Source of the DNA: Candidatus Woesearchaeota archaeon
Lineage (GTDB): Archaea > Nanobdellota > Nanobdellia > SCGC-AAA011-G17 > DATDVL01
Assembly (NCBI GenBank): GCA_964365915.1
Contig: CAYIRJ010000004.1
Location: 1 to 47,359 of the forward strand
Direction of reading: 5' to 3'
Length of the DNA: 47,359 bases
The notes beneath the pieces are model-generated. The model saw nothing but the letters and a program-made list of their open reading frames with translations, had not been told where the DNA came from and searched no databases. The position numbers and the translations under genes were made by a program. Positions 469-28,974 of the stretch are shown here, one piece after another; position 1 is the stretch's first letter, and each line of letters begins with the position of its first letter.

Positions 469-565
469 GCCCTAGTCGTCTAGTGGTTAGGATACAGCCC
501 TGTCATGGGCATGCAGATCGGTCCAAAGAAAGGCTGTGGCGCGAGTCCGATTCTCGCCTAGGGCG
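469..565 (+). tRNA. tRNA-Asp (anticodon GTC) with ~25-nt intron (506-530) 3' of position 37
   Basis: Acceptor stem GCCCTAG/CTAGGGC, D arm GTCT..GGAT, anticodon stem CAGCC/GGCTG with loop CTGTCA|intron|A, T arm GCGAG-TCCGATT-CTCGC, discriminator G. Mature length ~72 nt. Confidence 0.7.
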
Positions 566-567
566 TT

Positions 568-669
568 GGGCCGGTAGCTCAGCTTGGTAGAGCATTTGCC
601 TTTTATCAAGCAAGCATATCCTGCTTCAAAGCAAGCAAGTGGTCATGGGTTCAAATCCCATCCGGCCCG
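568..669 (+). tRNA. tRNA-Lys (anticodon TTT) with ~28-nt intron (606-633)
   Basis: Acceptor GGGCCGG/CCGGCCC, D arm GCTC-AGCTTGGTA-GAGC, anticodon stem TTTGC/GCAAG with loop CTTTTA|intron|A, T arm ATGGG-TTCAAAT-CCCAT. Starts 2 nt after tRNA-Asp. Confidence 0.7.
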
Positions 670-6811: not shown

Positions 6812-9398
6812 CGCAATTGATTTTGCAGCAGCACTGCCGAAAAAAATTTTGGATGAGTTTGAAGAGCTGGCAGCAGCAGAAAAATTAACGCAGAAACAGA
6901 AACAGGAAGCACTGGCACTGCTGCATGAAGAATATCAGAACAGCAAGATCAGCCCTGGGGAGGCGATTGGGATCATCACTGCAGAGAGCTTTGGCGAACC
7001 AGGGACTCAAATGTCACTATTTTTTAGTAACAAAATAATTGTGAAAATAAACAACAATAAAATATTTACGGTAAAAATTGGACCGTTTGTTGATATGTTA
7101 ATGAAGATGAAAGGATCATTTAAACTCAACGATCATTCAGAAATTCTTCCTTTACATGATTTTGAAATTTATGTTCCTAGTTTAAATCAAGAAGAAAAGA
7201 TAGAATGGAAACGCGTGATTGAATGTAGTAGGCATATCACAAACAAAAAACTTATGAGAATTACTACTGCTTCTGGTAGGTCTGTTACCTGTACTGATAA
7301 TCACTCTTTTGTAAATCGTATTCATAATAAGATTACTCCAATAAAAGGGACAGAATTGCAAATTGGAAATAGAATTCCCGTTATTAATTCATTTGTGAAT
7401 CCCTTACCGATGCAAGAATTATCTATCAAAAACCACATCATCGATAATGAAGGAATAGTTGAAGAAAAAGGCGTACTTTCCAAACCAGGAACTAATGCTA
7501 AATCTATGAATGGAAGTTTACCATTAAATGAATCTACTGGATGGTTTATTGGTGCATATCTTGCAGAAGGCAATGGAGGAAAATACCACGCTTCTCTTTC
7601 CAATGTAAATGATAATTACATCAATAACGGTAAACGCTTCGCTGATTCTCTAGGTATTGAACCTGTCGACAGATTTTATATTGGAGAATATGGTCCAGGT
7701 AGATCATTAACATTACATTCTGGATTTTTAGGTAGTTTCATTATAACTCATTGTGGGCAAGGTTCAGATTTCAAAAAAGTCCCTTACTTTGCTTATTCTG
7801 CATCTGATGCGTTCATCTCTGGATTGCTGAGAGGCTACTTTGATGGCGATGGGAATTTCCATGTGGATAGAAAGATGATTCGCTGCTCTTCCAATTCCAA
7901 AGAATTAATAGATGGCATTGCCTTGCTGTTGTCACGATTCAGAATATTTTCCTTTAAAGTACAAGATAAGAAAGGGCAGCACTGGCTCTTGATTCCCTAT
8001 AAGTATGCTCCTTTATTCTTGCAGCACATTGGAAGCGATATTGATTACAAACGTGCTAGCCTCGAAACTTTAGCAGAAAAAGCCAAACGCTTCTGGAATT
8101 CGAGAAGCCAAGATTATACAGACATGATTTCAGGATTTGGAGAACTTTTCAGGAATACTGCAAAGAAGGTTGGCTATCCTACGCGTTACGTCAATAACTT
8201 TACGAACCGCCAAAAAATTGGAAGAACTGCCCTCTTCCGATACATGAAACTCTTTGAACATCTTGCCAAGGAAAAAAACATAGACATTAAGGATGAGCTT
8301 GCTATCATGCAGCGCATGTCTTCCTCTGATGTGGTGTGGGATGAGATTGTAAAGATTGAATATGTCGATAATGACAAGCCTGTTTATGACCTCAGCGTGC
8401 CAGGATTAGAAACATTCACGACAGCAGATGGCATTATCACCCATAACACTTTGAATGTTTTTCACTTTGCAGGCGTCGCGGAAGTGGCAGTGACCCAAGG
8501 ATTGCCCAGGCTTATTGAACTGTTTGATGCCAGAAAAGAAATCAAGACTCCTTTAATGGAAATTTATCTGGACAAGGATATTGCCAAGGATCCTGAAAAA
8601 GTGAGGAAGATGGCTGCACAAATCAGGGAAACCCGTGTCGAGGAAGTGGTCAGTGATTTTTCCATTGATGTTGCACGGCTGCAGATTGCATTGGTGCTGG
8701 ACAAACAGAAGATGAGAAACCTTTCCATTACCAACAATCAGCTAATGAAAGCACTGGAACAGGACATTAAAACTGCCTCGATCAAGGATGAAGGAGATAG
8801 CATTGTACTGAAAACTAAGGTAAAGGAAAATGAGCTGATGGAAACGTACAAGCTGAAGGAAAAAACAAAAACAGTGTTTGTCCGGGGAGTTGCGGGCATC
8901 ACCCAAGTATTGCCAGTGAAGGCAGGCAACGAGTTCATTATCCTTGCAGCAGGGTCGAATCTGAAGGAAGTGTTCGCACTGAAAGGAGTGGATGCTGCAC
9001 GTACGACTACGAACGACATCTTTGAAGTGCAAAAAGTGCTGGGTATTGAGGCAGCACGGCAGACCATCATTAACGAGGCGAAAAAAGTGATTGAGGACCA
9101 AGGACTGGAAGTGGATGTCCGTCATATTTTGTTTATTGCAGATGCCATGACTGCAACAGGAGTAGTAAAAGGGATTACTCGATCAGGCATTACTGGAGAG
9201 AAGGAAAGCGTGCTTGCCCGGGCCAGCTTTGAAACCCCTATTGAACACTTGGTGGATGCCTCGCTGGTGGGAGAAGTAGACTATTTGAATTCCGTCATTG
9301 AAAATGTGATGCTGAACCAGATTGTTCCTTTGGGAACAGGATTGCCTGACCTCAGGGCAGTGACCCAAACTGAGGACAAGGAAAAGAAGGAAGCATGA
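6792..9398 (+). CDS. rpoA2: RNA polymerase subunit A'' (Rpo1C), interrupted in frame by a 478-aa intein
   Basis: 868 aa in total. The extein flanks GEPGTQM | TLNVFHFAGVAEVAVTQGLPR match the conserved A'' motif. Without the intein the protein is ~390 aa, typical for A''. Confidence 0.95.
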   Translation: MSNMKDNAIDFAAALPKKILDEFEELAAAEKLTQKQKQEALALLHEEYQNSKISPGEAIGIITAESFGEPGTQMSLFFSNKIIVKINNNKIFTVKIGPFVDMLMKMKGSFKLNDHSEILPLHDFEIYVPSLNQEEKIEWKRVIECSRHITNKKLMRITTASGRSVTCTDNHSFVNRIHNKITPIKGTELQIGNRIPVINSFVNPLPMQELSIKNHIIDNEGIVEEKGVLSKPGTNAKSMNGSLPLNESTGWFIGAYLAEGNGGKYHASLSNVNDNYINNGKRFADSLGIEPVDRFYIGEYGPGRSLTLHSGFLGSFIITHCGQGSDFKKVPYFAYSASDAFISGLLRGYFDGDGNFHVDRKMIRCSSNSKELIDGIALLLSRFRIFSFKVQDKKGQHWLLIPYKYAPLFLQHIGSDIDYKRASLETLAEKAKRFWNSRSQDYTDMISGFGELFRNTAKKVGYPTRYVNNFTNRQKIGRTALFRYMKLFEHLAKEKNIDIKDELAIMQRMSSSDVVWDEIVKIEYVDNDKPVYDLSVPGLETFTTADGIITHNTLNVFHFAGVAEVAVTQGLPRLIELFDARKEIKTPLMEIYLDKDIAKDPEKVRKMAAQIRETRVEEVVSDFSIDVARLQIALVLDKQKMRNLSITNNQLMKALEQDIKTASIKDEGDSIVLKTKVKENELMETYKLKEKTKTVFVRGVAGITQVLPVKAGNEFIILAAGSNLKEVFALKGVDAARTTTNDIFEVQKVLGIEAARQTIINEAKKVIEDQGLEVDVRHILFIADAMTATGVVKGITRSGITGEKESVLARASFETPIEHLVDASLVGEVDYLNSVIENVMLNQIVPLGTGLPDLRAVTQTEDKEKKEA
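7014..8447 (+). mobile_element. Class 1 intein with LAGLIDADG homing endonuclease domain, inserted in rpoA''
   Basis: Begins with Ser (SLFFSNKIIV) right after extein GTQM. Has block B TCTDNHSF and LAGLIDADG motifs GWFIGAYLAEGNG and ISGLLRGYFDGDGNF. C-terminal block VYDLSVPGLETFTTADGIITHN is followed by +1 Thr (TLNVFHFAG). Length 1434 nt, in frame. Confidence 0.85.
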
Positions 9399-9652: not shown

Positions 9653-10060
9653 ATGCAGTATGACCTCCAGTTGATTGGCTATCTCAATACTTTTGAATCC
9701 CTAACCCGATCGAAAGTGAAGGATGTGTTCTTTGATGCTACGGAGACCTTGGTGTTTGTGATGCAGCCAGGAGAGATGGGAAAAGCCATTGGCAAGAAAG
9801 GCAGCAATGTGAAACGCTTAGGAAACTTGCTGAAGAAGCGCATTCGCGTTATTGAATTTTCTTCTTCTGCCATTGATTTTGTTAAAAATTGCACGCTGCC
9901 CTTGATTCCGAAAAAGATGGTGCAGGAAGTGGATACTATCACTATCACCATGGAAAATACGCAACAGAAGGCTATGCTGCTGGGAAGGAACAAAAGCAAT
10001 TTCTTGAATATGCAGAAGATAGTGCAGAGATATTATCCGGTGCAGCTGAAAGTGTTATAG
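9653..10060 (+). CDS. nusA: Archaeal NusA-like KH-domain transcription termination/antitermination factor
   Basis: 135 aa with two KH-like segments (GEMGKAIGKKGSNVKRL); conserved position after L30e. Confidence 0.8.
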   Translation: MQYDLQLIGYLNTFESLTRSKVKDVFFDATETLVFVMQPGEMGKAIGKKGSNVKRLGNLLKKRIRVIEFSSSAIDFVKNCTLPLIPKKMVQEVDTITITMENTQQKAMLLGRNKSNFLNMQKIVQRYYPVQLKVL

Positions 10061-11266
10061 AAATATATCATCCTCAGCATCGTAGTCCATTCCTAAGGCC
10101 TTTGTGAATTTTACTTGGTTTTCCTTGATCTGCAGTTTTTGCAGTGCCTTGTTCCTTATTTGTCGAATTCTTTCTCGTGTCACGTTTCCCTCGATTGTAC
10201 CTACTTCTTCCAATGTTCTTTTTTCTCCTGTAAGATACAATAATCTTATTATTCTTTTTTCTCTTTCTTTTAAAGAAGTTTTATCAAGTGCTTGAATAAT
10301 CATTTCTTTATCATAGACTAAAATATTTTCCCTTATCCTTTCTTGGTAATCATGGCAATCTCTTTTTTCCAAATAATCAACTATTTCTTGATCTTGTTGA
10401 TTGTGCTGAATATTTTCTTTTGCTGGAGTTAAGTCCTGCTTAGCTCTGTCATCTAATGTCAACGTTCGATGAAGATTCTGATCTTTGGGTTCTTGGTAAA
10501 GAGTGTTTATTTCTAGATTTACAGGATTCAAAGCCTTGCATATTAATTCAGTTTTTTTATCCGCAATTTCTTCTCCTCTTATTACCTTTTCTGCCCTTAG
10601 GAATAAAAAAGAATCTAGATGCACTGCTGCATAGGAATAGTTATGATAATTTTCACTCATTACACCAAAAAAGGCAGCTCTATACACTGCTGTGTATCCT
10701 GGATGTTTTTCTGCTTTTCTCACGAAATTAATAATAGATATAGAAGCCCGCTGTATGAGATCTTCCAATGGTGGTGATTCTAAATTCCTTGATTTTCTAT
10801 AGCGAATAAATGATTTTCCTGCCTGCGTGGCTGTATGCAGAAAATACGTCTCCATAAATCGTTGCATCTCTTGTTCAGAATATCCTGCTTCTTTCAACGC
10901 TGGAGCAATATGCCCTCGATAATGATGTACAAATGTTGCATGGTATCTTTGATTTACTTCTTCTTGCGTGGCAGATGGGTGCTGCTGTAAAAATTTGAGA
11001 AAGTTCCTTTTTCTTTCATCCCAGACTTTCTCTGACAATTGCCCTTTTCCCCTATTCCAAGCTGATTTTGAAATGCCTACATCTTTTTTTGCATTGTTAA
11101 TTCTCAACCGGTAGAACTTTTTGAGAATGGATTCTAGTCCTGCTTTCCTTACATCCCTTATGCTCGCTCCTTGATGACTTGCTAAATAGTCATAAAATTC
11201 TGTTAATCCTCTTTCCCAATATGCGTAATCCTTCTGTACCTGTTTTTGCTCTGATATAGTAGTCAT
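10055..11266 (-). CDS. Sigma-70-family-like protein (region 2 DLIQ... and region 4.2 HTH) of bacterial type, antisense within the rpo-str cluster
   Basis: 403 aa. C-terminal LDKTSLKEREKRIIRLLYLTGEKRTLEEVGTIEGNVTRERIRQIRNKALQKL is a near-consensus sigma-70 region 4.2. EDLIQRASISIINFVRKAEKHPGYTAVYRAAFFGV resembles region 2.1-2.2 (DLIQEGNIGLMKAVEKFD..GFKFSTYATWWI). Lower GC than its neighbours; overlaps the nusA stop convergently. Confidence 0.7.
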   Translation of the reverse strand: MTTISEQKQVQKDYAYWERGLTEFYDYLASHQGASIRDVRKAGLESILKKFYRLRINNAKKDVGISKSAWNRGKGQLSEKVWDERKRNFLKFLQQHPSATQEEVNQRYHATFVHHYRGHIAPALKEAGYSEQEMQRFMETYFLHTATQAGKSFIRYRKSRNLESPPLEDLIQRASISIINFVRKAEKHPGYTAVYRAAFFGVMSENYHNYSYAAVHLDSFLFLRAEKVIRGEEIADKKTELICKALNPVNLEINTLYQEPKDQNLHRTLTLDDRAKQDLTPAKENIQHNQQDQEIVDYLEKRDCHDYQERIRENILVYDKEMIIQALDKTSLKEREKRIIRLLYLTGEKRTLEEVGTIEGNVTRERIRQIRNKALQKLQIKENQVKFTKALGMDYDAEDDIFL

Positions 11267-17671: not shown

Positions 17672-17836
17672 GGTTGCTCTTCAATAAAAATAAGCAAGCA
17701 AAGGCAAGGTTTATAACAATATTTATCTTGTTCATTTAACTTAACAGTAATGAAATCTCAAGAAATAGAAACGCTTATAAATCATCATCTCCGCATCTCC
17801 ACACATCTTTATCCTAATAAACATGAGGTAACCACT

Positions 17837-19123
17837 ATGGCACGAACAAAACCCCATTTGAACGTTGTCTTTGTCGGACACGTTGACCATGGAAAAAGCA
17901 CTACGATAGGAAGATTGCTCTATGATTCTGGGAACATTGATGAAACTGCTATGCGCAAGCTGAAGGAAACTGCGCAGCAAGTAGGAAAAGTAGGATTTGA
18001 ATTTGCATTTGTCATGGATAACCTCAAGGAAGAGCGCGAGCGGGGAGTGACCATTGACCTTTCGTACAAGAAATTCATCACGCAAAAGTTTGAAATTACC
18101 ATTATTGATGCGCCGGGGCACAAGGATTTTATCAAGAACATGATTACTGGCACAAGTCAGGCAGATGCGGCATTTTTAGTGGTTGCTGCGCCTGAAGGTG
18201 CTATGGCCCAGACCAAGGAGCACTTATGGCTGCTCAAGACATTGGGAGTGCAGCAGCTTGCAGTGCTTATTAATAAAATGGATGTTTCTAAGTATGACCA
18301 GAAGCGCTTTGAAGAAGTGAAGAATGAATTAAGCAAGCTCATTCAAAGCGTTGGGTACAAGCTAGAGAAGGTACAGTTCATCCCCACTGCTGGATTCCCT
18401 GGGGACAATGTAGCAAAGAAATCCCAGAACATGTCCTGGTATACGGGGCCTACGTTACTAGAACAGCTGGACAAGTTTGACACTCCCGAAAAGCCGACGC
18501 AACTACCTTTACGCCTGCCTATCCAGGATGTGTACAACATCACGGGAATTGGTGTGGTCCCTGTAGGCAGAGTAGAAACTGGAATCATGAAAGTCAATGA
18601 CAAAGTTATTATTGTTCCTGGGAGAGATGGAAAAGGAGTGAAAGGAGAAGTCAAGACCATTGAAATGCACCATGAACAGATTCCTGAAGCATTGCCTGGA
18701 GACAATGTCGGATTTTCCATTAAAAACATTGGGAAGAAGGACATTGAACGGGGAGATGTGTTAGGGCATGAGAACAATGTGCCTACAGTGGTGAGCGAGT
18801 TTACTGCGCAGATTGCAGTGATCAACCATCCTACAGTCATTACTGTAGGCTATACTCCCGTGTTCCATATCCATACTGCACAAGTGGCATGCCAATTTGC
18901 AGAATTAATGTACAAGGTGGATCCTCGCACAGGACAGAAGATGGAAGGCAAAGTGGACTTCCTCAAGAATGGGGATGTGGCTGTAGTGAAGATCAAGCCT
19001 ACCAAGCCTGTAGTGCTGGAGAAGCAAAAAGACATTCCGCACATGGCACGATTTGCTATTCGAGATGCAGGCGCTACGGTTGCCGCAGGCATGTGCATTG
19101 ACTACGTGAAGAAGACGCTGTAA
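17837..19123 (+). CDS. tuf: Elongation factor 1-alpha (aEF-1A)
   Basis: [30 protein letters not shown] and NKMD. Start taken at 17837 (GAGGT 6 nt upstream) rather than the ORF-track start at 17750. Confidence 0.95.
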
Positions 19124-19332: not shown

Positions 19333-19917
19333 ATGGTAAAATTATTTTTAGTGCGCCACGGGGAAGCAATTGAAGCAGAGCCTGAGCCTATGCTTTCGAA
19401 AAAAGGTAAACAACAAGCAAAGGCTGTTGCAAAAAGGCTTGTACAATTTCGAATAACGAAAGTATATACGAGTAGCGCACGGCGAGCTTTGGAAACTTAT
19501 GAGCTATACAAAAAATTGAAACCTGATATTCCGGTTATAGTTTCTGATAAGTTAAAAGAAGTATATCGTACATTAGTTGGTGGTCCTGAACGTGAAGGTA
19601 CATCTCTCGATCGTGCAAAGAAAGATATGCAACGTGCAGATACTATCTTAAAAGAGATCCTTGATGATACTAAAGAAGATGATATTGTTCTTTTGTTTAT
19701 TCATGGAAATTTAATTCGATATATTCTTGCTCACTTTTTACAAATAAGTAAAGTGAACTTATGGGAAGAGTTAGAGATTCATGATGCTTCAATCTCATTA
19801 ATCGAAATTGTTAACAACAAACCACAAATCCGCTTGGTTAATTCCATCGAACATTTAGATAAAAAAGAAGTTGATGAATTCTACAATTGCTATGCAAAAA
19901 CAGAATATCTTTCTTAG
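19333..19917 (+). CDS. Histidine phosphatase superfamily protein (phosphoglycerate-mutase-like)
   Basis: LVRHGEA (RHG catalytic motif) at the N-terminus and a second His in LLFIHGNLIRY. Convergent, with a 4-nt overlap, with the glycosyltransferase operon. Confidence 0.7.
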   Translation: MVKLFLVRHGEAIEAEPEPMLSKKGKQQAKAVAKRLVQFRITKVYTSSARRALETYELYKKLKPDIPVIVSDKLKEVYRTLVGGPEREGTSLDRAKKDMQRADTILKEILDDTKEDDIVLLFIHGNLIRYILAHFLQISKVNLWEELEIHDASISLIEIVNNKPQIRLVNSIEHLDKKEVDEFYNCYAKTEYLS

Positions 19918-21086
19918 GAAAGAAGTGTAACTAAAGATTTTGAAGGGCTATCATTAAATTGGTTAATTCCTCGTATTCGTCCTTGCCTTCCCATTGTTGC
20001 TCGTAATTCTGAAAAATTGTATAGTTCAATCGTTTTTGCCTCTAATGCTCCTCTTGATTTTGGATTGATAAGATAACCTGTTGTTCCGTTAACTATTGCT
20101 TCAACAACTCCTCCACTGTTTCCTCCTATAACTGGTATTTGATGCATGCCAGCTTCAAGAAAGACAATTCCAAAACCCTCTACATCATTAGGTGGAATAA
20201 ATTCTGTTGGTAAAACAAAAATATCAGCAGCACCATAGTGCGTTGCTAAACCCACGTTATCAACTTGATCATGAATGTGCACTCTTTCTTCGAGATTATG
20301 AAGATTTATGGTTTCTTGAATATGTGCTTTATTTGGACCATCACCTACGATGGCATAATGGATGTTAGGTATAGCTGTTCGCAGATTAGGAAATATCTCA
20401 ACAAAGCTATACTGACCTTTTCTGTCTATGAGACGCCCTACAGAGAGCACAACAAAATCATCTGGAGTATAACCAAGTGCTATTTTACAATTTGCTTTAT
20501 CTTGTAATGTTGGCGTGCTTAAAGAAGGCGGAAGTAAATGGAATCTTGCATGAATACCTTGATGTACCAATAAATTTTGCGTGAATTTGCTAATACAAAA
20601 AACACGATCTGCATCTTGTAATACAGTTTTGTAAAATAGAGCTTCATCTTGTGTGTATCCTTGATGTGCCCCTGTCGAAGAGCGGTTTTCATTAACAATA
20701 GCATTATCAATGAATACTTCTTTTGCATGGGTAATAATTCCTGTTCGTACAGAAGGTTTATATATTTTATAATCTCGACCAGCTTCTGGATGTGAGCGGA
20801 GATAACCAAAAAGTGCTATATCTGTGTTTGTTTGTCTTAAGATGTCAACAATAGTACGATTCGTTTGTCTTCTGGGAGGAGTTTCATGTTCAAAGGGAAA
20901 AAAATCGGTCCTATACACATCAAATGGTAGACTTTGATAATCTGTAACTTGGCCAATATTATTAGGAACAATAACTTGAAAACGCTCACTTGCAAAATAC
21001 TTTCTATAAATTTGCATTAAGTAAGTTGCTATGCCTCCCTTCATAGGATGGAAATCTTGTGTGATCAGTGTAACACTTTTTACCAT
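19914..21086 (-). CDS. Glycosyltransferase family 4 (GT-B, retaining)
   Basis: EGFGIVFLEAGMHQIPVIGGNSGGVVEAI (E-x7-E region), 390 aa. Confidence 0.85.
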   Translation of the reverse strand: MVKSVTLITQDFHPMKGGIATYLMQIYRKYFASERFQVIVPNNIGQVTDYQSLPFDVYRTDFFPFEHETPPRRQTNRTIVDILRQTNTDIALFGYLRSHPEAGRDYKIYKPSVRTGIITHAKEVFIDNAIVNENRSSTGAHQGYTQDEALFYKTVLQDADRVFCISKFTQNLLVHQGIHARFHLLPPSLSTPTLQDKANCKIALGYTPDDFVVLSVGRLIDRKGQYSFVEIFPNLRTAIPNIHYAIVGDGPNKAHIQETINLHNLEERVHIHDQVDNVGLATHYGAADIFVLPTEFIPPNDVEGFGIVFLEAGMHQIPVIGGNSGGVVEAIVNGTTGYLINPKSRGALEAKTIELYNFSELRATMGRQGRIRGINQFNDSPSKSLVTLLS

Positions 21087-21090
21087 AGGA

Positions 21091-21876
21091 TTATTTGAAT
21101 ACCTCTCGGAATTGTCTTAAAGATGTTTTCGCCTCCCTTGGATGTCCCCATCGATGACGATCATATGCCTGAATTAAAAAGAAAATACCTCTGCCGAAGC
21201 GTAATTCTTCTTGACTTAAGTGAGATTTTCCTTGAAAATATTGATCAAGGTAAGTTGCTTGTTCTGTTCCATTACGACAAACTCGAAGAAGAGGTCTTGC
21301 TAAATCGAAGGCGACAGGTCCATCTAATACATGTTCTAAATCAATAGCAACGAGCCTTTGTTTTGTTTTAACAATATTGCTCAGCGAATAGTCTCCATGA
21401 ATCAACCCATAAGTAGAAAATTGAGGTGTAGGCAATTCATTTTTTCTTACTAACTGATGCTGTAAAAGATAGGTGTAAACACGATCAAGTTTTTCAGCCC
21501 AACCATCTAAATTATAATTATCTACCTGGTGGAATGCTGCTTGAAGCTGTGCGACAGCAAAAATATCTAGGGTAGGTAAGGTCTCTAACACCTCTCCATC
21601 GATAAATGTAGTTACAAATCCTCGTTCAAGTATTCCTACAATAGGTGAAGAAATTATTCTTGATCTATTTTTCTCATCGAGTCTTTGTTTATATTGTGTT
21701 ATATTTGACGTTCTATCTGTAGGATGATAAATAAACGTTCCATTTGCTGTTGTAAATAATAATGGGCTTTGTCTTGTTCCTGCTTTCCATCCCGTATTAA
21801 TAACTTGGTGATGAGTGATTTCTCCAAAATTTCTTGATAATGTAGACATTACTTCTCTTACATTATTTATACTCAT
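21091..21876 (-). CDS. Protein-kinase-like phosphotransferase (APH/choline-kinase/Kdo-kinase fold)
   Basis: GLIHGDYSLSNIV (Brenner HxDxxxxN) and LVAIDLEHV (DxE). Start taken at MSINNV (21876), giving an ATGA overlap with the upstream GT4; the ORF track gives 21915. Confidence 0.7.
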   Translation of the reverse strand: MSINNVREVMSTLSRNFGEITHHQVINTGWKAGTRQSPLLFTTANGTFIYHPTDRTSNITQYKQRLDEKNRSRIISSPIVGILERGFVTTFIDGEVLETLPTLDIFAVAQLQAAFHQVDNYNLDGWAEKLDRVYTYLLQHQLVRKNELPTPQFSTYGLIHGDYSLSNIVKTKQRLVAIDLEHVLDGPVAFDLARPLLRVCRNGTEQATYLDQYFQGKSHLSQEELRFGRGIFFLIQAYDRHRWGHPREAKTSLRQFREVFK

Positions 21877-23060
21877 TTGAATAATCCTCGGTATGTTTGG
21901 AAGATAATATTCCAATCAAATAATGTTTCTGCTCGTATTCTTCCCTTTACTCCCATAGCACGTCGTGTTGTAGGGTTTTGGATAAGCTCAACAAGCCTAT
22001 TGGCTGCTGTTTCATAATCTCTTTCAGATACTAAGAACCCCGTTTCACCATCTTGCACTATTTCAGGGACGCCTCCTACTCGAGAAGCGATGATGGGTAG
22101 ACCTGAAGCAGACGCTTCACAAAGACATCTTCCCATAGTTTCCGTGTGAACATAAGATGAGCCTCGTTCATGCTTTTCTAAGTGGATAGGCATATGTAAA
22201 AAAATATCTGCTGTCCTGAAATATGCAGGCATATCTTCTATTCTTCGTGCACCAAGTAAATGCACATTATTCAATCCACGATCAACCACTATCTTTTCGA
22301 TAGTTTCTCGTTCTGGACCATCACCTAAAATATGATATTGAAAATGGACATCTTGCCTTGTTGCTTGTTCTATTGCTCGAAGTGAATATTCCCAACCTTT
22401 AAAATCAACAAGTCGTGCAGCAGTTAGTATGTTAACAGTTTCTCTTGAGGATGATGTAGTGGGATAAAAAGTATTACAGTCAACACCACCAGTAACTTTA
22501 ACAAGTTTGTCAGAATTCACGCCGACCGATATTGTTCTATGATAAGAGTATTGACTATTGACTATGAATCTGTCTACGTATTTATTTACTAAGTTTACAA
22601 CTCTTGCTCGTGAAGCCTCTAAGCTTCTTGTAGTGTCTGTTTCATCTCCAATCCATCCAGCCACAATATCATTTCCACCTGATCGAACAATAACTTGTGT
22701 TTGTGGATATGTTTGCTTGATAATTGCAAGCGAAGGTAGCCATGTTGGACTATTTAAGTAGAAAATAGTGTTGTTAGGATCTTGATTTGCAAGGAGTATT
22801 ACTGCATCTTTCTCAAAGTTGCCAGTTAATGATTTGTTTACCAATACTTCTAAATCTTTATTTGCAAGTGCTTGTGCTGGTCCATGTGAACTGTCGCCTG
22901 GAGCTGGAACGCCGTCAGTGACTAAATCTTTAACAAATATCTTACTTATAGGAAATTCTTGATGCCCAGCAAATGCACGAGCGAATTCATACGCATGTGT
23001 TTCCATACCACCGATATGGCTAGAGAATTTTGGTGAGATAAAGCAAATTTGCTTAACCAT
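21873..23060 (-). CDS. Glycosyltransferase family 4
   Basis: ETMGRCLCEASASGLPIIASRVGGVPEIVQDGETGFLV, 395 aa. Confidence 0.85.
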   Translation of the reverse strand: MVKQICFISPKFSSHIGGMETHAYEFARAFAGHQEFPISKIFVKDLVTDGVPAPGDSSHGPAQALANKDLEVLVNKSLTGNFEKDAVILLANQDPNNTIFYLNSPTWLPSLAIIKQTYPQTQVIVRSGGNDIVAGWIGDETDTTRSLEASRARVVNLVNKYVDRFIVNSQYSYHRTISVGVNSDKLVKVTGGVDCNTFYPTTSSSRETVNILTAARLVDFKGWEYSLRAIEQATRQDVHFQYHILGDGPERETIEKIVVDRGLNNVHLLGARRIEDMPAYFRTADIFLHMPIHLEKHERGSSYVHTETMGRCLCEASASGLPIIASRVGGVPEIVQDGETGFLVSERDYETAANRLVELIQNPTTRRAMGVKGRIRAETLFDWNIIFQTYRGLFK

Positions 23061-23698
23061 TAAAACTCACCTCGTTCACGAAGAATATCGTCAACAGGTA
23101 CGCCCTTTTTAATATCTTCTTTTATCTTTTGTTCTAAATCGGCAACTGCAACACATTGTGTGAGAACTTCACTTTCAATTGTTTGAGGAATAACAGCGAC
23201 CGCATCATAATCACCAAATAATAAATCTCCTGGCTTGATAGTACATTCTCCAATAATGACTGATATATCTAATTTATCAACAATACCTCTCTTTTTAATA
23301 TCTCGAGCATAGTTGGTTCGCGCAAAGACAGGATAACACATATTTATGGTTTCAATAGTATCTCTTGTACAACCATCAATAATTGTTCCATCAACACCCC
23401 GATATTGAGCTAATGTTGCCATGAGTTCCCCAAAAAATGCCATTTCTTTGAAACCATTTCCAACAACAAGAACATCTCCCTTATTTAATTGCTCAAGAAA
23501 ATGGGGTCCTCTATAAACCTCTCGGTGGTCTTCACCATTAGTAATCGGTTTAAGAGACATTGGTCTTGCTCGCCCAAATAAACGTGCTTTAACAAAGTTA
23601 GGTTTAATGTCTGAAGGAAGTAATTGGTGTGTATACCCCATTTCGTCTAAAACATCAGAGATTATTGCTGAAGAGAGACGTGTTTTATAATCAATCAT
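23060..23698 (-). CDS. RraA-like family protein (class II pyruvate aldolase / RNase E regulator fold)
   Basis: GDVLVVGNGF..AFFGELMATLAQYRGVDGTIIDGCTRD matches the RraA/HMG-CHA aldolase signature. Confidence 0.8.
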   Translation of the reverse strand: MIDYKTRLSSAIISDVLDEMGYTHQLLPSDIKPNFVKARLFGRARPMSLKPITNGEDHREVYRGPHFLEQLNKGDVLVVGNGFKEMAFFGELMATLAQYRGVDGTIIDGCTRDTIETINMCYPVFARTNYARDIKKRGIVDKLDISVIIGECTIKPGDLLFGDYDAVAVIPQTIESEVLTQCVAVADLEQKIKEDIKKGVPVDDILRERGEF

Positions 23699-25112
23699 GG
23701 TTATTCACCCTTTTAAGCCCACGCATGACTGTTTCTGCAAATGCAAAATCTTCTTCAGTATTGATGTCAATACTTTCTATTAATTGGATTGGAAGAATAT
23801 GCGGGGTTTTTCCAATGCGGGATTTACCACTGAGAAGCGCAGCTCTTCTGATAGCATATAAACTCATAGTTTCAATAATGGTTGCGGGAAGGTCAACACT
23901 GTTAGGAATATGGATTGGATCATAGTTTCTTGGTGTACCATCTGCATTCCAAAGATATATCTTTTCTCTTCGTGCAGCAAAGACACTATCATGTTCTTTT
24001 CTTACTGTCAGACGAAATACTGCTTCATCAATAGTACTTCGTAAGAGAAATGGCGCTGTAGGAAGTACCTGCACATATATATCAGCATCTGGAACTCGTC
24101 CTGCCTCGTACAAAAGCAGTTGATTACCGTCAGTGCTATTAGAGGCAAGGCTCTCTGGTCGACGTAATTCTTTATGTCCTCGTCCACTTGCAATATCAAA
24201 TACGATTTGTGATTCACTATCTAAGTAAACGTCTTGAATAGTGTGGCAAGTGAGTAAGGTATCTAAGACATGAAGGAGTAATGGTTTATCACCGAGCTGT
24301 CTAATATTTTTACTTGTAACTCGAGTGCTTGTTCCTTTTGCAGGCACAAATGCTACAACATGATATTTTTGCGCAATTTTTCCTAATAAATCTTCTTGTA
24401 CAAATACATCTAATGAACTTGTTGCATCGTTGACAATACGTCGTCCTGCTTGTTCAAATTGTCGTTGCGCTTCTTGCATATAACTTATAATGAGTGCACG
24501 ATATTCAGGATGCCCAGGTAAACCTTTTTGGATAATGTGACTTTGTGTTCTTGGAAATATTAAATTTGGGAAGTCAGTATTTCGATGAATTTCATAAGCG
24601 TGACCATCTTTTCCCCAATCGTGGTTTGTGCTCAGATCCATGCCTATAATATTTACTCTATTAAATCCAAGGAAGTATGCAAGTTGTAATGCGTCATAGG
24701 CTACTGTTTTTCCTCGCCAAAACCCCTCTTGTAAAGGATTTTGTGCAAAACGAACAACTCCCTGCGGATGACATTGCGGTACAAAGTAGGTTCGCTCATC
24801 TGCTAATTCTTGAGGAAATGTTTTGCAGGCTCCAGCAGCAATAATCTTTATAGTTGGTGTGCCTCTCAATACTCGTTCATACACATCTCTGAACTGGGGA
24901 ATAACATCTTTGTCAGCAACAATGTTAAATGTAGGAGTTACACCTGATTGCCTTAAGATAAGTGGGCTGAGGTTAAGACCAATGGTTACTTCATTTCTCA
25001 GCGCTGAGAGGTCCCTATAGGCTAAACTTGGGCCCGTTCCTGCAATAAACCCATGCTTTCCTCTGAACTTATTTTCCAAGCTAAGAAGGGCTTCAAGACT
25101 ATTTGTAACCAT
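23691..25112 (-). CDS. Fusion protein: N-terminal DUF115 (Maf / MptE-like) domain plus C-terminal CMP-sugar cytidylyltransferase (NeuA/KdsB-like)
   Basis: N-terminal GKHGFIAGTGPSLAYRDL..VTIGLN (DUF115-like). C-terminal HVVAFVPAKGTSTRVTSKNIRQLGDKPLLLHVLDTLL (acylneuraminate/Kdo cytidylyltransferase N-terminal motif). 473 aa; a TATA-like element lies upstream at 25124-25138. Confidence 0.75.
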   Translation of the reverse strand: MVTNSLEALLSLENKFRGKHGFIAGTGPSLAYRDLSALRNEVTIGLNLSPLILRQSGVTPTFNIVADKDVIPQFRDVYERVLRGTPTIKIIAAGACKTFPQELADERTYFVPQCHPQGVVRFAQNPLQEGFWRGKTVAYDALQLAYFLGFNRVNIIGMDLSTNHDWGKDGHAYEIHRNTDFPNLIFPRTQSHIIQKGLPGHPEYRALIISYMQEAQRQFEQAGRRIVNDATSSLDVFVQEDLLGKIAQKYHVVAFVPAKGTSTRVTSKNIRQLGDKPLLLHVLDTLLTCHTIQDVYLDSESQIVFDIASGRGHKELRRPESLASNSTDGNQLLLYEAGRVPDADIYVQVLPTAPFLLRSTIDEAVFRLTVRKEHDSVFAARREKIYLWNADGTPRNYDPIHIPNSVDLPATIIETMSLYAIRRAALLSGKSRIGKTPHILPIQLIESIDINTEEDFAFAETVMRGLKRVNNHD

Positions 25113-25274: not shown

Positions 25275-25583
25275 ATGCCTCAAGCAAGAATCAACTTATC
25301 ATCCTTAGACATTGGAAAATTGAATGAGATCTGTACCAGCATTGTCGACATTGCAGATAAAACGAAGACCCAAATTTCCGGACCGATTCCTCTGCCGACG
25401 AAGCGATTGCGCCATACGGTGAGAAAAAGCCCGTGTGGAAATGGAAAAGCTTCCTTTGATAATTTTGAGATGCGCATCCATAAGCGCTTGATCTACATGG
25501 GCATTGATGATCGAGCATTGCGATTAGTCATGAGAGTTCCTATTCCTGAAGGGGTCCAAATCAGTATTGCAAGCGTTGAGTAA
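25275..25583 (+). CDS. rps10: 30S ribosomal protein S10 (uS10)
   Basis: RINLSSLDIGKLNEICTSIVDIADKTKTQISGPIPLPTKRLRHTVRKSPCGNGKASFDNFEMRIHKRLIYM is a canonical S10 pattern. Confidence 0.9.
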   Translation: MPQARINLSSLDIGKLNEICTSIVDIADKTKTQISGPIPLPTKRLRHTVRKSPCGNGKASFDNFEMRIHKRLIYMGIDDRALRLVMRVPIPEGVQISIASVE

Positions 25584-25632
25584 ATTAATGCTGTAGTGCT
25601 CTTAATTCTTCCTTTATTCCCAGCTGGGTTTA

Positions 25633-25655
25633 ATACCCCGCAGCTCTGCTGCGGT
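25633..25655 (+). repeat. IS left-end hairpin repeat
   Basis: Exact 23-nt copy of the repeat at 26119-26141. Confidence 0.8.
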
Positions 25656-25687
25656 ACTATTATAACTTCAGCAGACATTCCAGTTTA

Positions 25688-26119
25688 ATGGATGTTCAGC
25701 ATGCGTGCCATTGTTCATATAGGATTCGCTATCACATGGTGTTTGTGCTCAAGTATAGGAAAAATCTCATCAGCGATGAGATATTTGAATTTCTGAAAGA
25801 AATTTGCAAAGGGATTGAACAGCGTTACTTCATCAAGTTCGATGCTCTTGGCAGCGATGGAGATCATCTGCATTTGGTGATTGAAGCTGCTCCTCGCTAT
25901 GCTCCATCAAATGTTATGCAGATCTGCAAGAGCATTCTTGCAAAGCAAGTCTTCAAGCAATTTCCTGAAGTGCGTGAAGAGCTGTGGAATGGAGAGTTCT
26001 GGAGTGATGGAGGACACATTGATACTGTTGGAGATGGCAGAGGACTGGATGCAGTCAGGCAATATGTAGAAAAGCAAGGTAAGAAATCAGATCAGCTCAC
26101 ACTCTACTCGTTCGTCTGA
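25688..26119 (+). CDS. tnpA: IS200-like transposase TnpA (HUH present; catalytic Tyr apparently absent)
   Basis: YHMVFVLKYRK and HLHLVIE (HUH) match the IS200 family. The C-terminal motif reads FWSDGGHIDTVG where WSxSYFxG is expected. Confidence 0.8.
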   Translation: MDVQHACHCSYRIRYHMVFVLKYRKNLISDEIFEFLKEICKGIEQRYFIKFDALGSDGDHLHLVIEAAPRYAPSNVMQICKSILAKQVFKQFPEVREELWNGEFWSDGGHIDTVGDGRGLDAVRQYVEKQGKKSDQLTLYSFV

Positions 26120-26531
26120 TACCCCGCAGCTCTGCTGCGGTTGGGTAGTTCATTTGAGCAAATTCATTCCCGGATAGATCTTTGAGAAGAATATAATTTC
26201 CGGAAGGATCTCTTGCAAATAGTTGATACGTCGGAAGCTGTTGCGAATCTTTGATAATAAAACTTGTGGAGCCTATTGTCTGGTTTATCCTGATTTCCAA
26301 GGGGATTCCCAAACCGTAAATAATATACGAAAGCGCCGATGCAACCCCGAAATCGGATGGTCTTGCAGCAATTTCTATCCTTCTTTCAAAGTCTAAGGCA
26401 TACACCCCTTTCTTAAGCATCCAAGTCTCTCCCTCTTTCTTTTTCATTTCTTCTGCAGATGTGATGCGCTCGCGCTCAAGAAAATCCAAGATATCTTTGC
26501 TGATTAGTTTTCGCAATTGAGAAGTTATCAT
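26097..26531 (-). CDS. VOC (glyoxalase/bleomycin-resistance) family-like protein whose 3' end runs into the IS element
   Basis: DPSGNYILLKD-type motif. The last ~15 codons (..TAAELRGIRRTSRV) are encoded by the IS right-end repeat and the tnpA 3' end, implying the IS insertion replaced the C-terminus. Confidence 0.5.
   Translation of the reverse strand: MITSQLRKLISKDILDFLERERITSAEEMKKKEGETWMLKKGVYALDFERRIEIAARPSDFGVASALSYIIYGLGIPLEIRINQTIGSTSFIIKDSQQLPTYQLFARDPSGNYILLKDLSGNEFAQMNYPTAAELRGIRRTSRV
26119..26141 (+). repeat. IS right-end hairpin repeat
   Basis: Exact 23-nt copy of the repeat at 25633-25655. Confidence 0.8.
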
Positions 26532-27988: not shown

Positions 27989-28059
27989 ATTTCCTTCAAG
28001 CAGTGAGCGCTTTTATTTGTATCGGAATCCTTTTATATAAATTCCTACAAGAAATATAT

Positions 28060-28974
28060 ATGCAGCGCAAGGTTGCCAAGATTGGGCCAAGCACGTTGAT
28101 GGTCAGCCTGCCCACGCAATGGGTAAAAAAGCACGGCATCAACAAAGGAGATGTGGTGAATGTGCTGGAGGATGGCGATAAATTAACCATCAATCTCGGA
28201 ACGCATACCCCTACAGAAAAGAGCGCAACACTTTCTGTCGAAGGACTTGATGTCATGCTGAGCAGGGCTATTGCTGGATATTATAAAAAAGGCTACTCTG
28301 AAATCAAGATTGTTTGCGATTCCCACAAAAAGCTTGCTGATGTCTATCAAGCATTAAATGTGCACTGGACAGGCATGGAAATTGTGGAACAAGGAGCTTC
28401 TCACATTTTGCTCCGTCAGGTTAGCGAGGTTACTAAGGAAAGTTTTCCTGCCATGCTTAACCGCGCCTTCCTTTTTTTGATTGCGACGAGTGATGCGTCC
28501 TGCCATGCGCTTACGTCTGGGAATAAAGAATCCTTACGGATGGTGGTTGCACGCGATCCTACACAAAATAAGTACTGTGATTTCTGCAGGAGAGTGCTGA
28601 ACAAAGAATCGATCACCGGAGCACCCATGATTTACTACATTGTGGAACAGCTTGAGCGGATGGGGGATTTGTATCGCGATCTTTGCAAGCATTTTCTGGA
28701 ACATCCCGCGAAGCTGAAAAAACATACTGCACTCTTCCAAGAGGCGCATGCATTGCTGCAACAGTTCTATACTCTTTATTACCGGTTTACTCTGGAACGC
28801 TATGAAACTCTGGGAACTTCCTTTAAAACATTGCAGAAGAGGATTGAAGATGCTCTTTCCCCTGCGGATAAACAAGATGTTTTCTTTCTGATGTATCTGC
28901 ACCAGATTGCAGAAGCCATTTTTGATATCAATGGTGCTGCACTGGTTCTTAACCTAGAAACACGGAAGGATTGA
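28060..28974 (+). CDS. PhoU-like phosphate-uptake regulator with N-terminal AbrB/SpoVT-type swapped-hairpin domain
   Basis: MQRKVAKIGPSTLMVSLPTQWVKKHGINKGDVV (AbrB-like) followed by helical PhoU-like repeats. TATA TTTTATATAA at 28031-28040, 24 nt upstream of the ATG. Confidence 0.6.
   Translation: MQRKVAKIGPSTLMVSLPTQWVKKHGINKGDVVNVLEDGDKLTINLGTHTPTEKSATLSVEGLDVMLSRAIAGYYKKGYSEIKIVCDSHKKLADVYQALNVHWTGMEIVEQGASHILLRQVSEVTKESFPAMLNRAFLFLIATSDASCHALTSGNKESLRMVVARDPTQNKYCDFCRRVLNKESITGAPMIYYIVEQLERMGDLYRDLCKHFLEHPAKLKKHTALFQEAHALLQQFYTLYYRFTLERYETLGTSFKTLQKRIEDALSPADKQDVFFLMYLHQIAEAIFDINGAALVLNLETRKD

What the first reader, a model, noticed from the sequence alone, without database searches (positions are those of the whole stretch)
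25625..26145. IS200/IS605-like element with identical 23-nt hairpin ends; TnpA appears to lack the catalytic Tyr
The element is small: tnpA alone, ~520 bp between the repeat outer edges. tnpA is flanked by perfect direct copies of ATACCCCGCAGCTCTGCTGCGGT, each forming the hairpin CCGCAGC-TCT-GCTGCGG, the kind of subterminal structure recognised by Y1 transposases. TnpA keeps the HUH motif (HLHLVIE), but where the family has W-S-x-S-Y-F-x-G with the nucleophilic Tyr, it reads FWSDGGHIDTVG with Gly at the Tyr position. That would make it catalytically dead, either a recently decayed or trans-mobilised element or a domesticated DNA-binding protein.
Basis: seen in the sequence. Interest (0 to 1): 0.6.

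Follow-up and report, generated by a model that had tools for sequence, protein, structure and literature searches.

The report
Intact IS200-type insertion sequence, not dead

Summary
The sequence features are real. Two perfect 23-nt hairpin copies (25633-25655, 26119-26141) flank a 143-aa Y1_Tnp gene (25688-26119) with HUH (H60/H62) and the string FWSDGGHIDTVG.

The claim that the catalytic Tyr is missing is wrong. In IS608 and ISDra2 the nucleophile is the Tyr of the Y-x-x-x-Q motif on helix alphaD (Y127, Y132). It aligns with query Y126 in RQY126VEKQ130. Y126 is present in all 121 clade members; Q130 in 120.

DGGH is the fixed signature of a large DPANN clade under strong purifying selection. 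The clade is multi-copy in several genomes, with different flanks.

Cis features fit single-strand transposition:
- The hairpin stems covary.
- The four bases 5' of each hairpin (LE AATA, RE GATA) pair with TTATT in the left flank and TCATT at the right tip. This code covaries across 81 ends.

The element is therefore 25619-26154, inserted 3' of TTATT into the 3' end of an orphan ORF.

Verdict: a new member of a known kind, low interest. Activity was not shown directly.

The parts
25614..25618 (+). Left cleavage/target site CL: TTATT. It lies in the left flank, and the element is inserted 3' of it.
   Evidence: A T-N-A-T-T motif precedes every LE in 45 related ends and covaries with the LE guide. 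In four copies from one genome (L075-L078) the second base of this motif varies while the downstream sequence is identical, so the motif belongs to the flank.
25619..26154 (+). The insertion sequence: 536 bp, tnpA only. The boundaries are uncertain by 1 nt because a T follows both cleavage motifs.
   Evidence: Near-identical copies in different flanks diverge right after ...TT(C/T)ATT on the right and before or within T(T)TATT on the left: L002 vs L009/L015/L016, L029 vs L030, L035 vs L036, L054 vs L055.
25619..25631 (+). LE linker (19 nt from the cleavage site to the hairpin foot if the guide and CC are counted). It contains the CCCAGCTGGG mini-palindrome and a TGGGT box.
   Evidence: ATTCC(C)-N4-5-TGGGT is conserved in LEs of this subtype. 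It folds as a weak 3-bp stem. Its function is inferred only.
25632..25635 (+). Left guide GL: AATA, the 4 nt that precede the CC at the foot of the LE hairpin.
   Evidence: It pairs with TTATT as g1:c2, g2:c1, g3:c3, g4:c4.
25638..25654 (+). LE subterminal hairpin: CCGCAGC-TCT-GCTGCGG.
   Evidence: Stem covariation across 38 distinct family hairpins: 92% of cells paired, 6 of 7 pairs with compensatory changes, 0 of 500 shuffles as good.
25658..25665 (+). TATTATAA, a possible archaeal TATA box about 26 nt upstream of the tnpA ATG (would give a leaderless mRNA).
   Evidence: Read from the sequence. A TTAATAA/TTTAAAG-like box follows the LE hairpin in relatives. Inference, not tested.
25688..26119 (+). 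tnpA: a 143-aa Y1 HUH transposase.
   Evidence: Pfam PF01797 at 1.8e-30 and NF033573 at 2.1e-33. AF2 model with pLDDT 82; the best 29 PDB matches are all IS200/IS605 TnpA structures.
25865..25873 (+). HUH motif: H60-L61-H62.
   Evidence: Aligned with ISDra2 H67/H69. H60 is present in 119 of 121 members and H62 in 121 of 121.
26012..26014 (+). It is part of the clade signature W-S/T-D-G-G-H-I/V-D-T-V/I-G-D-G.
   Evidence: It aligns with ISDra2 Y116 and IS608 C111, neither of which is the nucleophile. The column is Y/F/G/K/S in relatives that keep Y-x-x-x-Q.
26063..26077 (+). Y126-V-E-K-Q130: the catalytic Tyr, and the Gln that is the third metal ligand in homologues.
   Evidence: Aligned with ISDra2 Y132..Q136 and IS608 Y127..Q131. 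Y126 is present in 121 of 121 members and Q130 in 120 of 121. The model places it in helix 119-129.
26118..26121 (+). Right guide GR: GATA. It overlaps the tnpA stop codon TGA.
   Evidence: It pairs with TCATT. The single LE/RE guide difference (A vs G) lies just outside the 23-nt repeat and matches the T vs C difference between TTATT and TCATT.
26124..26140 (+). RE subterminal hairpin: CCGCAGC-TCT-GCTGCGG. It can be extended by TACC/GGTA pairing across a bulge on the 3' side (GTT/TTG).
   Evidence: The TTGGG box 3' of the hairpin is conserved in the family.
26150..26154 (+). Right cleavage site CR: TCATT, the last bases of the element.
   Evidence: Copies in different flanks diverge immediately after this motif. 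The motif covaries with GR: GATA-TCATT, CATA-TGATT, GATG-TCACT, AATG-TTAC(T).
26097..26531 (-). Orphan ORF (144 aa) whose last 18 codons are encoded by the RE of the element. It is probably the gene that was hit.
   Evidence: The only database match is itself. Removing 25619-26154 gives a 136-aa ORF ending ...EFAQIKEELRALQH, with its stop 2 nt from the S10 stop.

Best explanation
Positions 25619-26154 are a complete IS200-group member of the IS200/IS605 family. It carries tnpA only and has no tnpB. It belongs to a clade that is widespread in DPANN archaea.

Its 143-aa TnpA is a normal Y1 HUH transposase. H60 and H62, plus Q130, would bind the metal. Y126, on the mobile C-terminal helix, is the nucleophile.

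By analogy with IS608 and ISDra2, a TnpA dimer binds the two top-strand hairpins when the DNA is single-stranded. The four bases 5' of each hairpin (AATA at LE, GATA at RE) base-pair with TTATT in the left flank and with TCATT at the right tip. That brings both sites into the active sites.

The top strand is cut 3' of each motif and excised as a single-stranded circle. The circle is then reinserted 3' of another T-T-A-T-T site. No target duplication results.

Here the element landed in the 3' end of an orphan ORF that converges on the ribosomal protein S10 gene.

Shown: the fold and family, the catalytic residues, the hairpins and their covariation, the guide/site covariation, the boundaries, multi-copy status in relatives, and purifying selection.

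Inferred: the chemistry, strand specificity, and current activity in this genome.
For: Family assignment: Pfam Y1_Tnp at 1.8e-30 and NF033573 at 2.1e-33. The AF2 model has pLDDT 82, and the best 29 PDB matches are all IS200/IS605 TnpA structures.

Catalytic residues:
- Query Y126/Q130 align with ISDra2 Y132/Q136. The deposited Y132F mutant differs from wild type only there.
- They also align with IS608 Y127/Q131.
- The literature places Y127 on alphaD.
- Y126 is present in 121 of 121 members, Q130 in 120, H62 in 121 and H60 in 119.

Selection: dN is 0.15-0.38 with saturated dS, and dN/dS is 0.07-0.12 where it can be computed.

Mobility:
- The same protein sits in two contexts.
- Two to five copies occur per MAG, in different flanks.
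- Many matches are cut at contig ends.

Cis sites:
- Hairpins lie on the tnpA strand at both ends in nearly all loci.
- The stems covary: 92% paired, 6 of 7 pairs compensatory, 0 of 500 shuffles as good.
- Guide/site pairs are Watson-Crick at 231 of 243 variable positions. Shuffles gave a mean of 162 and a maximum of 180 in 10,000 trials.
- The code predicts TTAC for AATG guides, and TTAC is found at the expected place in all 7 such right ends.

The guide/cleavage principle and the 19-nt LE linker match IS608 (PMC3201880).
Against: - No empty site and no RE-LE junction was found.
- No second copy lies in this 47-kb window, so transposition in this genome is not demonstrated.
- The same insertion is present in a second MAG (L001), so it may be fixed in that population.
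- The 81 ends are phylogenetically related. The LE sites were picked with a pattern that required N-N-A-T/C-T. The covariation statistics therefore overstate independence.
- The invariant D-G-G-H-I-D replacement of the usual x-S-Y-F/C strand start has unknown consequences.
- The left boundary rests on analogy plus one four-copy genome.
Confidence: 0.85

Rival explanations
1. One reading: TnpA has lost its nucleophilic Tyr and is catalytically dead. The element would then be decayed, mobilised in trans, or a domesticated DNA-binding protein.
For: G109 does replace the Tyr of the common W-S-x-S-Y-F motif. Only one copy is in the window.
Against: - That Tyr is not the nucleophile. The column is Cys in active IS608 and F/G/K/S in relatives.
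- The true nucleophile column is Y126, which is invariant.
- dN/dS is about 0.1 or lower.
- The element is multi-copy, with varied flanks, in related genomes.
Confidence: 0.03
2. A REP/RAYT-like system: the hairpins are genome-wide repeated extragenic palindromes and the protein is a domesticated REP-associated tyrosine transposase that maintains them.
For: Weak NCBIfam hit to REP_Tyr_transpos at 3.6e-05. A RAYT structure, 4er8, appears as a distant fold match.
Against: - The RAYT score is 23.7 bits against a cutoff of 80, while transpos_IS200 scores 115 against a cutoff of 55.
- The hairpins occur only as the LE/RE pair, in direct orientation around the gene. No stray copy is in the 47-kb window, and almost none in 89 loci.
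- The flanks of copies differ, whereas RAYT genes are single-copy and vertically inherited (established knowledge).
Confidence: 0.03
3. An intact-looking but no longer mobile copy: a fixed insertion in this lineage whose transposase is kept by selection elsewhere, or is too young to have decayed.
For: The same insertion at the same site is in a second MAG, with a 99% identical protein (L001). No empty site or junction is found in metagenomes.
Against: The ORF is intact. The two hairpins are identical, and the guide/site pairs are matched at both ends. These features are needed only for mobility. Nothing in the sequence is defective.
Confidence: 0.09

Closest known systems
IS608 (Helicobacter pylori), the IS200/IS605-family paradigm
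   Same: - HUH plus Tyr-on-alphaD plus Gln active site.
- Top-strand subterminal hairpins at both ends.
- A 4-nt guide 5' of each hairpin that pairs with a T-N-A-N cleavage site.
- A 19-nt LE linker.
- Insertion 3' of a fixed short motif, without duplication.
   Different: - IS608 also carries tnpB; this element does not.
- The cleavage motifs here are TTATT/TCATT rather than TTAC/TCAA, and carry an extra T.
- Guide position 3 is T, opposite the site's A, so all four positions could form Watson-Crick pairs. In IS608, A-2 is unpaired.
- The RE spacer is 9 nt to the motif and 14 nt to the cut, against 10 nt in IS608.
- Protein identity is about 25%.
ISDra2 (Deinococcus radiodurans)
   Same: Y1 transposase. 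Y132/Q136 correspond to Y126/Q130. The target is a pentanucleotide ending in AT (TTGAT, from established knowledge), which resembles the T-G-A-T-T seen in part of this clade.
   Different: ISDra2 has tnpB. It has S-Y-C where this clade has G-G-H. Identity is about 26%.
IS200-group elements (tnpA only), e.g. Salmonella IS200 and the Sulfolobus TnpA structures 2ec2/2f4f
   Same: - tnpA-only organisation and a small size.
- These are the best PDB sequence matches (1.2e-19 and 2.2e-19, about 30% identity).
- NCBI already names clade members 'IS200/IS605 family transposase'.
   Different: This clade has an invariant W-S/T-D-G-G-H-I/V-D-T-V-G-D-G segment and a conserved C-terminal Q-L-x-L-x-E-F tail. 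At 536 bp it is shorter than IS200, which is about 700 bp (established knowledge).
REP/RAYT systems
   Same: The same HUH-Y1 fold, and recognition of a GC-rich hairpin.
   Different: The NCBIfam RAYT cutoff is not met. There are no dispersed REP copies. The gene is multi-copy and mobile in relatives.

Membership tests
IS200/IS605 family (Y1 HUH single-strand transposons) | Transposase of the Y1_Tnp family above the curated threshold | tested here: met
   PF01797 scores 106 bits against a cutoff of 23. NF033573 scores 115 bits against a cutoff of 55.
IS200/IS605 family (Y1 HUH single-strand transposons) | HUH motif, plus a single catalytic Tyr on the C-terminal helix, followed four residues later by Gln | tested here: met
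   H60/H62 and Y126/Q130 align with ISDra2 H67/H69 and Y132/Q136, and with IS608 Y127/Q131. They are invariant or nearly so in the clade.
IS200/IS605 family (Y1 HUH single-strand transposons) | Subterminal hairpins at both ends on the same strand, and no terminal inverted repeats | tested here: met
   Both hairpins are on the + strand. The stems covary. The tips CCCAGC... and ...GTTCATT are not inverted repeats.
IS200/IS605 family (Y1 HUH single-strand transposons) | Cleavage sites recognised by guide bases 5' of each hairpin | tested here: met
   Guide/site covariation gives 231 of 243 Watson-Crick pairs, against a shuffled maximum of 180. It predicts the sites of the AATG-guided right ends. 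This is comparative evidence, not biochemical.
IS200/IS605 family (Y1 HUH single-strand transposons) | Insertion 3' of a specific short motif, without target-site duplication | tested here: met
   T-N-A-T-T lies to the left of every LE. The right flank (TGAGC...) does not repeat the left flank. No empty site was available to confirm this.
IS200/IS605 family (Y1 HUH single-strand transposons) | Strand-specific excision as a single-stranded DNA circle | not testable with these tools
   This needs biochemistry or read-level junction detection. A junction pattern found nothing in metagenome contigs.
IS200 subgroup (tnpA only) | No tnpB/IscB-type gene inside the element | tested here: met
   The 536-bp element holds one 143-aa ORF.
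REP/RAYT | RAYT-type protein above the curated threshold | tested here: not met
   NF047646 scores 23.7 bits against a cutoff of 80.
REP/RAYT | Many dispersed REP copies, typically as inverted pairs, around a single-copy gene | tested here: not met
   Only the two flanking copies are in the window. In 89 loci the hairpins are essentially confined to LE/RE positions. The gene is multi-copy in several MAGs. Whole genomes were not scanned.

The most novel reading that the evidence does not exclude
The DPANN clade may be a functionally distinct IS200 variant. The invariant D107-G-G-H110-I-D112 segment replaces the usual x-S-Y-F/C start of the last beta-strand. It could add a His/Asp pair near the HUH metal site or the ssDNA path. 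The guide code could be fully Watson-Crick at four positions plus a fixed T, which would make target choice more simply programmable than in IS608.
Probability: 0.12. Interest if true: 0.3.

Novelty: new member of a known kind. Interest (0 to 1): 0.13.

Why it matters
- It removes a false lead: there is no Tyr-less or domesticated transposase here.
- It documents a small, well-defined IS200 clade spread across DPANN archaea. These reduced genomes are usually thought poor in mobile elements.
- The clade is annotated only generically, and it gives a clean comparative illustration of the IS608-type guide/cleavage-site code.
- For annotation pipelines: the catalytic Tyr of Y1 transposases is the Y of Y-x-x-x-Q, not the Y of S-Y-F.

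Tried and rejected
- **Empty site.** The orphan ORF at 26097-26531 has no homologue other than itself among 5.8 billion proteins. An exact 24-nt empty-site pattern found nothing in metagenome contigs.
- **RE-LE junction or tandem pattern.** It found nothing in the fetched loci or in metagenome contigs.
- **C-terminal Y140 as an alternative nucleophile.** Rejected, because the column is Y/F/H in the clade.
- **Frameshift or sequencing error restoring S-Y-F.** Rejected, because D-G-G-H is in all but one or two of the 120 homologues at 64-99% identity.
- **REP/RAYT.** Rejected on score and on the distribution of hairpins.
- **Position of H110/D112 in the model.** The coordinates are not exposed to scripts, so this remains open.
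- **Subtilisin-like protease hit** (YWSAGGHIDGV, E=0.37). Treated as chance.
- **Literature searches.** They found no description of this DPANN clade.

Full report
**1. Observation**

The 23-mer ATACCCCGCAGCTCTGCTGCGGT occurs at 25633-25655 and 26119-26141. Both copies are on the + strand with no mismatch. None is found in 100 shuffles, and there is no third copy at up to 3 mismatches.

Each copy folds as single-stranded DNA into a 7-bp stem with a TCT loop. Between them lies one ORF, 25688-26119 (143 aa). It matches Pfam Y1_Tnp (1.8e-30) and NCBIfam transpos_IS200 (2.1e-33), both far above their cutoffs. HLHLVIE and FWSDGGHIDTVG are present. The sequence-level observation is therefore correct.

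The window is chromosomal DNA of a DPANN archaeon:
- The RNA polymerase B/A subunits, EF-2, EF-1alpha and S10 are all present.
- It has long tRNA genes, probably intron-containing.
- The closest TnpA homologues come from Nanoarchaeota and Woesearchaeota MAGs.

**2. The catalytic tyrosine is present**

HMMER alignments to solved TnpA structures place query G109 opposite the Tyr of the S-Y-F/C motif (S. tokodaii Y108, ISDra2 Y116). That residue is not the nucleophile. Three lines of evidence show this.

- Counting from chain residue 17 in the ISDra2 alignment gives H67 and H69 for HUH. It gives Y132 for the Tyr in QKY-IESQ.
- The PDB holds a Y132F mutant (2xo6, named as such). Its sequence differs from wild type only at that Tyr. 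The position aligns with query Y126 in RQY126VEKQ130.
- A direct alignment to IS608 TnpA gives LWTNSCFISTVG-GAPLNVVKQY127IENQ131 against FWSDGGHIDTVGDGRGLDAVRQY126VEKQ130.

It also reproduces the G117/G118 loop and the Y127-on-helix-alphaD arrangement described in PMC3597680.

The AlphaFold model (pLDDT 82) puts Y126 in a helix spanning 119-129, after a Gly-rich loop. The best 29 PDB matches are all IS200/IS605 TnpA structures.

**3. D-G-G-H is a clade signature, not decay**

All 120 best homologues (64-99% identity) carry W-S/T-D-G-G-H-I/V-D-T-V/I-G-D-G, with only one or two single-residue exceptions. Conservation of the catalytic residues among the 120 homologues plus the query (121 sequences):

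| Residue | Present in |
|---|---|
| Y126 | 121 of 121 |
| Q130 | 120 of 121 |
| H62 | 121 of 121 |
| H60 | 119 of 121 |

Y140 in the tail is Y/F/H, so it is not an alternative nucleophile.

Against relatives, dN is 0.15-0.38 while synonymous sites are saturated. Where it can be computed, dN/dS is 0.07-0.12.

An exhaustive search of 1.84 billion cluster representatives shows what the nearest outgroups carry. They have W-S-D-G-Y/F-F/Y. The column is Y, F, G, K or S in proteins that all keep Y-x-x-x-Q.

**4. The element is mobile in the clade**

- One protein (P0005) is found in two different right-flank contexts. A second Y1_Tnp gene lies about 3 kb away on the same contig.
- A scan of one genome per species found 96 relatives. 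They are in Woese-, Pace-, Nano-, Aenigm-, Micr- and Nanohalarchaeota MAGs, and in a few bins labelled Thermoplasmatota or bacteria.
- Several MAGs carry two to five copies on different contigs.
- Many matches stop at contig ends, as expected for repeats that break assemblies.

**5. Ends and boundaries**

In 45 full loci, both ends carry a hairpin on the tnpA strand, preceded by (N)ATACCCC.

The stems differ between elements, and sometimes between LE and RE of one element, yet stay complementary. Variants include CGCAGC/GCTGCG, CGGGGC/GCCCCG, CGGAGC/GCTCCG, CGATGC/GCATCG, CGCCCC/GGGGCG, CGACCC/GGGTCG and CCACAG/CTGTGG. On 38 distinct hairpins, 92% of cells pair, 6 of 7 pairs show compensatory changes, and no shuffle or slid register comes close.

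Near-identical copies in different flanks diverge immediately after ...TT(C/T)ATT on the right (L002 vs L009/L015/L016, L029/L030, L035/L036, L054/L055). In the window this is TCATT at 26150-26154.

On the left, identity begins at T(T)TATT. Four copies from one Pacearchaeota genome (L075-L078) have T-A-N-A-T-T with a variable N, followed by identical sequence. The motif is therefore flank, that is, the target.

The window element is thus 25619-26154 (536 bp), inserted 3' of TTATT (25614-25618). A 1-nt ambiguity remains because a T follows both motifs.

The LE cleavage site lies 19 nt from the hairpin foot, as in IS608.

**6. Guide code**

In IS608 the cleavage sites are read by the four bases 5' of each hairpin foot (PMC3201880). 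In this element those four bases lie just before the CC at the foot. They are AATA at LE (25632-25635) and GATA at RE (26118-26121). It matches the single difference between TTATT and TCATT.

Guide and site combinations across 81 ends:

| Guide | Cleavage site |
|---|---|
| AATA | TTATT |
| GATA | TCATT (or TTATT, a G-T wobble) |
| CATA | TGATT |
| TATA | TAATT or TGATT |
| TTTA | AAATT |
| CTTA | AGATT |
| GATG | TCACT |

The pairing scheme is g1:c2, g2:c1, g3:c3, g4:c4. At the three variable positions, 231 of 243 pairs are Watson-Crick. Shuffling gave a mean of 162 and a maximum of 180 in 10,000 trials.

The rule also predicts TTAC for right ends with an AATG guide, which were not in that set. 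TTAC is found at the expected place, just past an outer stem, in all seven.

Two caveats apply. The ends are related by descent, and the LE sites were located with a pattern that fixed A-T/C-T.

**7. What the insertion did**

The minus-strand ORF 26097-26531 is an orphan: its only database match is itself. It reads into the RE for its last 18 codons.

Deleting 25619-26154 in silico gives a 136-aa ORF ending ...EFAQIKEELRALQH. Its stop lies 2 nt from the stop of the convergent S10 gene. That is a plausible pre-insertion state.

The same insertion is present in a second MAG (L001). No empty site or circle/tandem junction was found. Activity in this genome is therefore inferred, not shown.

**8. 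Comparison and verdict**

Every testable defining feature of the IS200/IS605 family is met. The REP/RAYT alternative fails on its score threshold and on repeat distribution. NCBI already names clade members as IS200/IS605 family transposases. IS200/IS605 is reported as the most widespread IS family in archaea (PMC13343696).

What is specific here is modest: a DPANN-wide tnpA-only clade with the D-G-G-H-I-D signature, a conserved Q-L-x-L-x-E-F tail, and T-N-A-T-T sites.

The finding as stated, a Tyr-less dead transposase, is refuted. What remains is a new member of a known kind, and interest is low.

Noticed in passing
window 6792-9398 (+): The RNA polymerase A'' subunit ORF (868 aa) carries an intein with a LAGLIDADG homing-endonuclease domain (Intein_splicing 1.3e-18, LAGLIDADG_3 3.5e-11). 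GC drops to 0.34 at 7001-8000.
   Followed up: no
window 469-565 and 568-669 (+): Two adjacent tRNA genes of 97 and 102 nt are found by Rfam but missed by ARAGORN in bacterial mode. They probably contain introns, as is common in archaea.
   Followed up: no
window 19914-25112 (-): A minus-strand cassette of about 5.2 kb lies between EF-1alpha (17750-19123) and S10 (25275-25583). It holds two group-1 glycosyltransferases, an APH-like kinase, an RraA-like aldolase and an MptE-like/cytidylyltransferase fusion. EF-1alpha and S10 are usually adjacent in archaea (own knowledge).
   Followed up: no
L014, L018, L022, L023, L027, L029-L031, L040, L041, L062 (right ends): Many right ends carry a conserved insert of about 20 nt, AGTGAGCGnAGCGAACGGTGGG, between the hairpin and the terminal T-N-A-T-T. 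Its function is unknown.
   Followed up: partly
L032, L037, L039, L040, L045, L058 (right ends); also L018, L022, L043, L056, L060: A third RE type has a long outer stem around the hairpin (for example GAATCGCCGTCTTGAAAATCTGC ... GCAGATTTTAGGCGATTC). The cleavage motif lies just past it. Guides AATG/AATA match TTAC(T)/TTATT there.
   Followed up: partly
L042, L046-L055, L065, L072-L078 (left ends): A second LE subtype lacks the upstream ATTCC..TGGGT box. It has TTGGG after the hairpin, like an RE, and a short linker of 5-8 nt.
   Followed up: partly
L048 about 2405-2440: One copy is inserted directly after the 3' end of a tRNA-like sequence (...GGTTCGATTCCCCGTGGGGCCA|TTTATT|...).
   Followed up: no
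L032, L061, L070, L073: A few clade members sit in bins labelled as bacteria (Tenebribacter, WOR-3, Paceibacteria, 'bacterium'). This could be binning error or transfer between episymbiont-rich communities.
   Followed up: no
window 25688-26119, residues C9, C40, C80 and H8: The clade has invariant or nearly invariant Cys9, Cys40 and Cys80, plus His8. Cys9 and Cys80 are absent from the two aligned solved TnpA sequences, S. tokodaii and ISDra2. Their role, for example metal binding or a disulfide, is unknown.
   Followed up: no
window 10055-11266 (-) and 28003-28974 (+): A 403-aa archaeal ORF has a C-terminal Sigma70_r4-type HTH (1.3e-10). A 323-aa ORF has an N-terminal MazE/AbrB-like domain (6.6e-08).
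   Followed up: no
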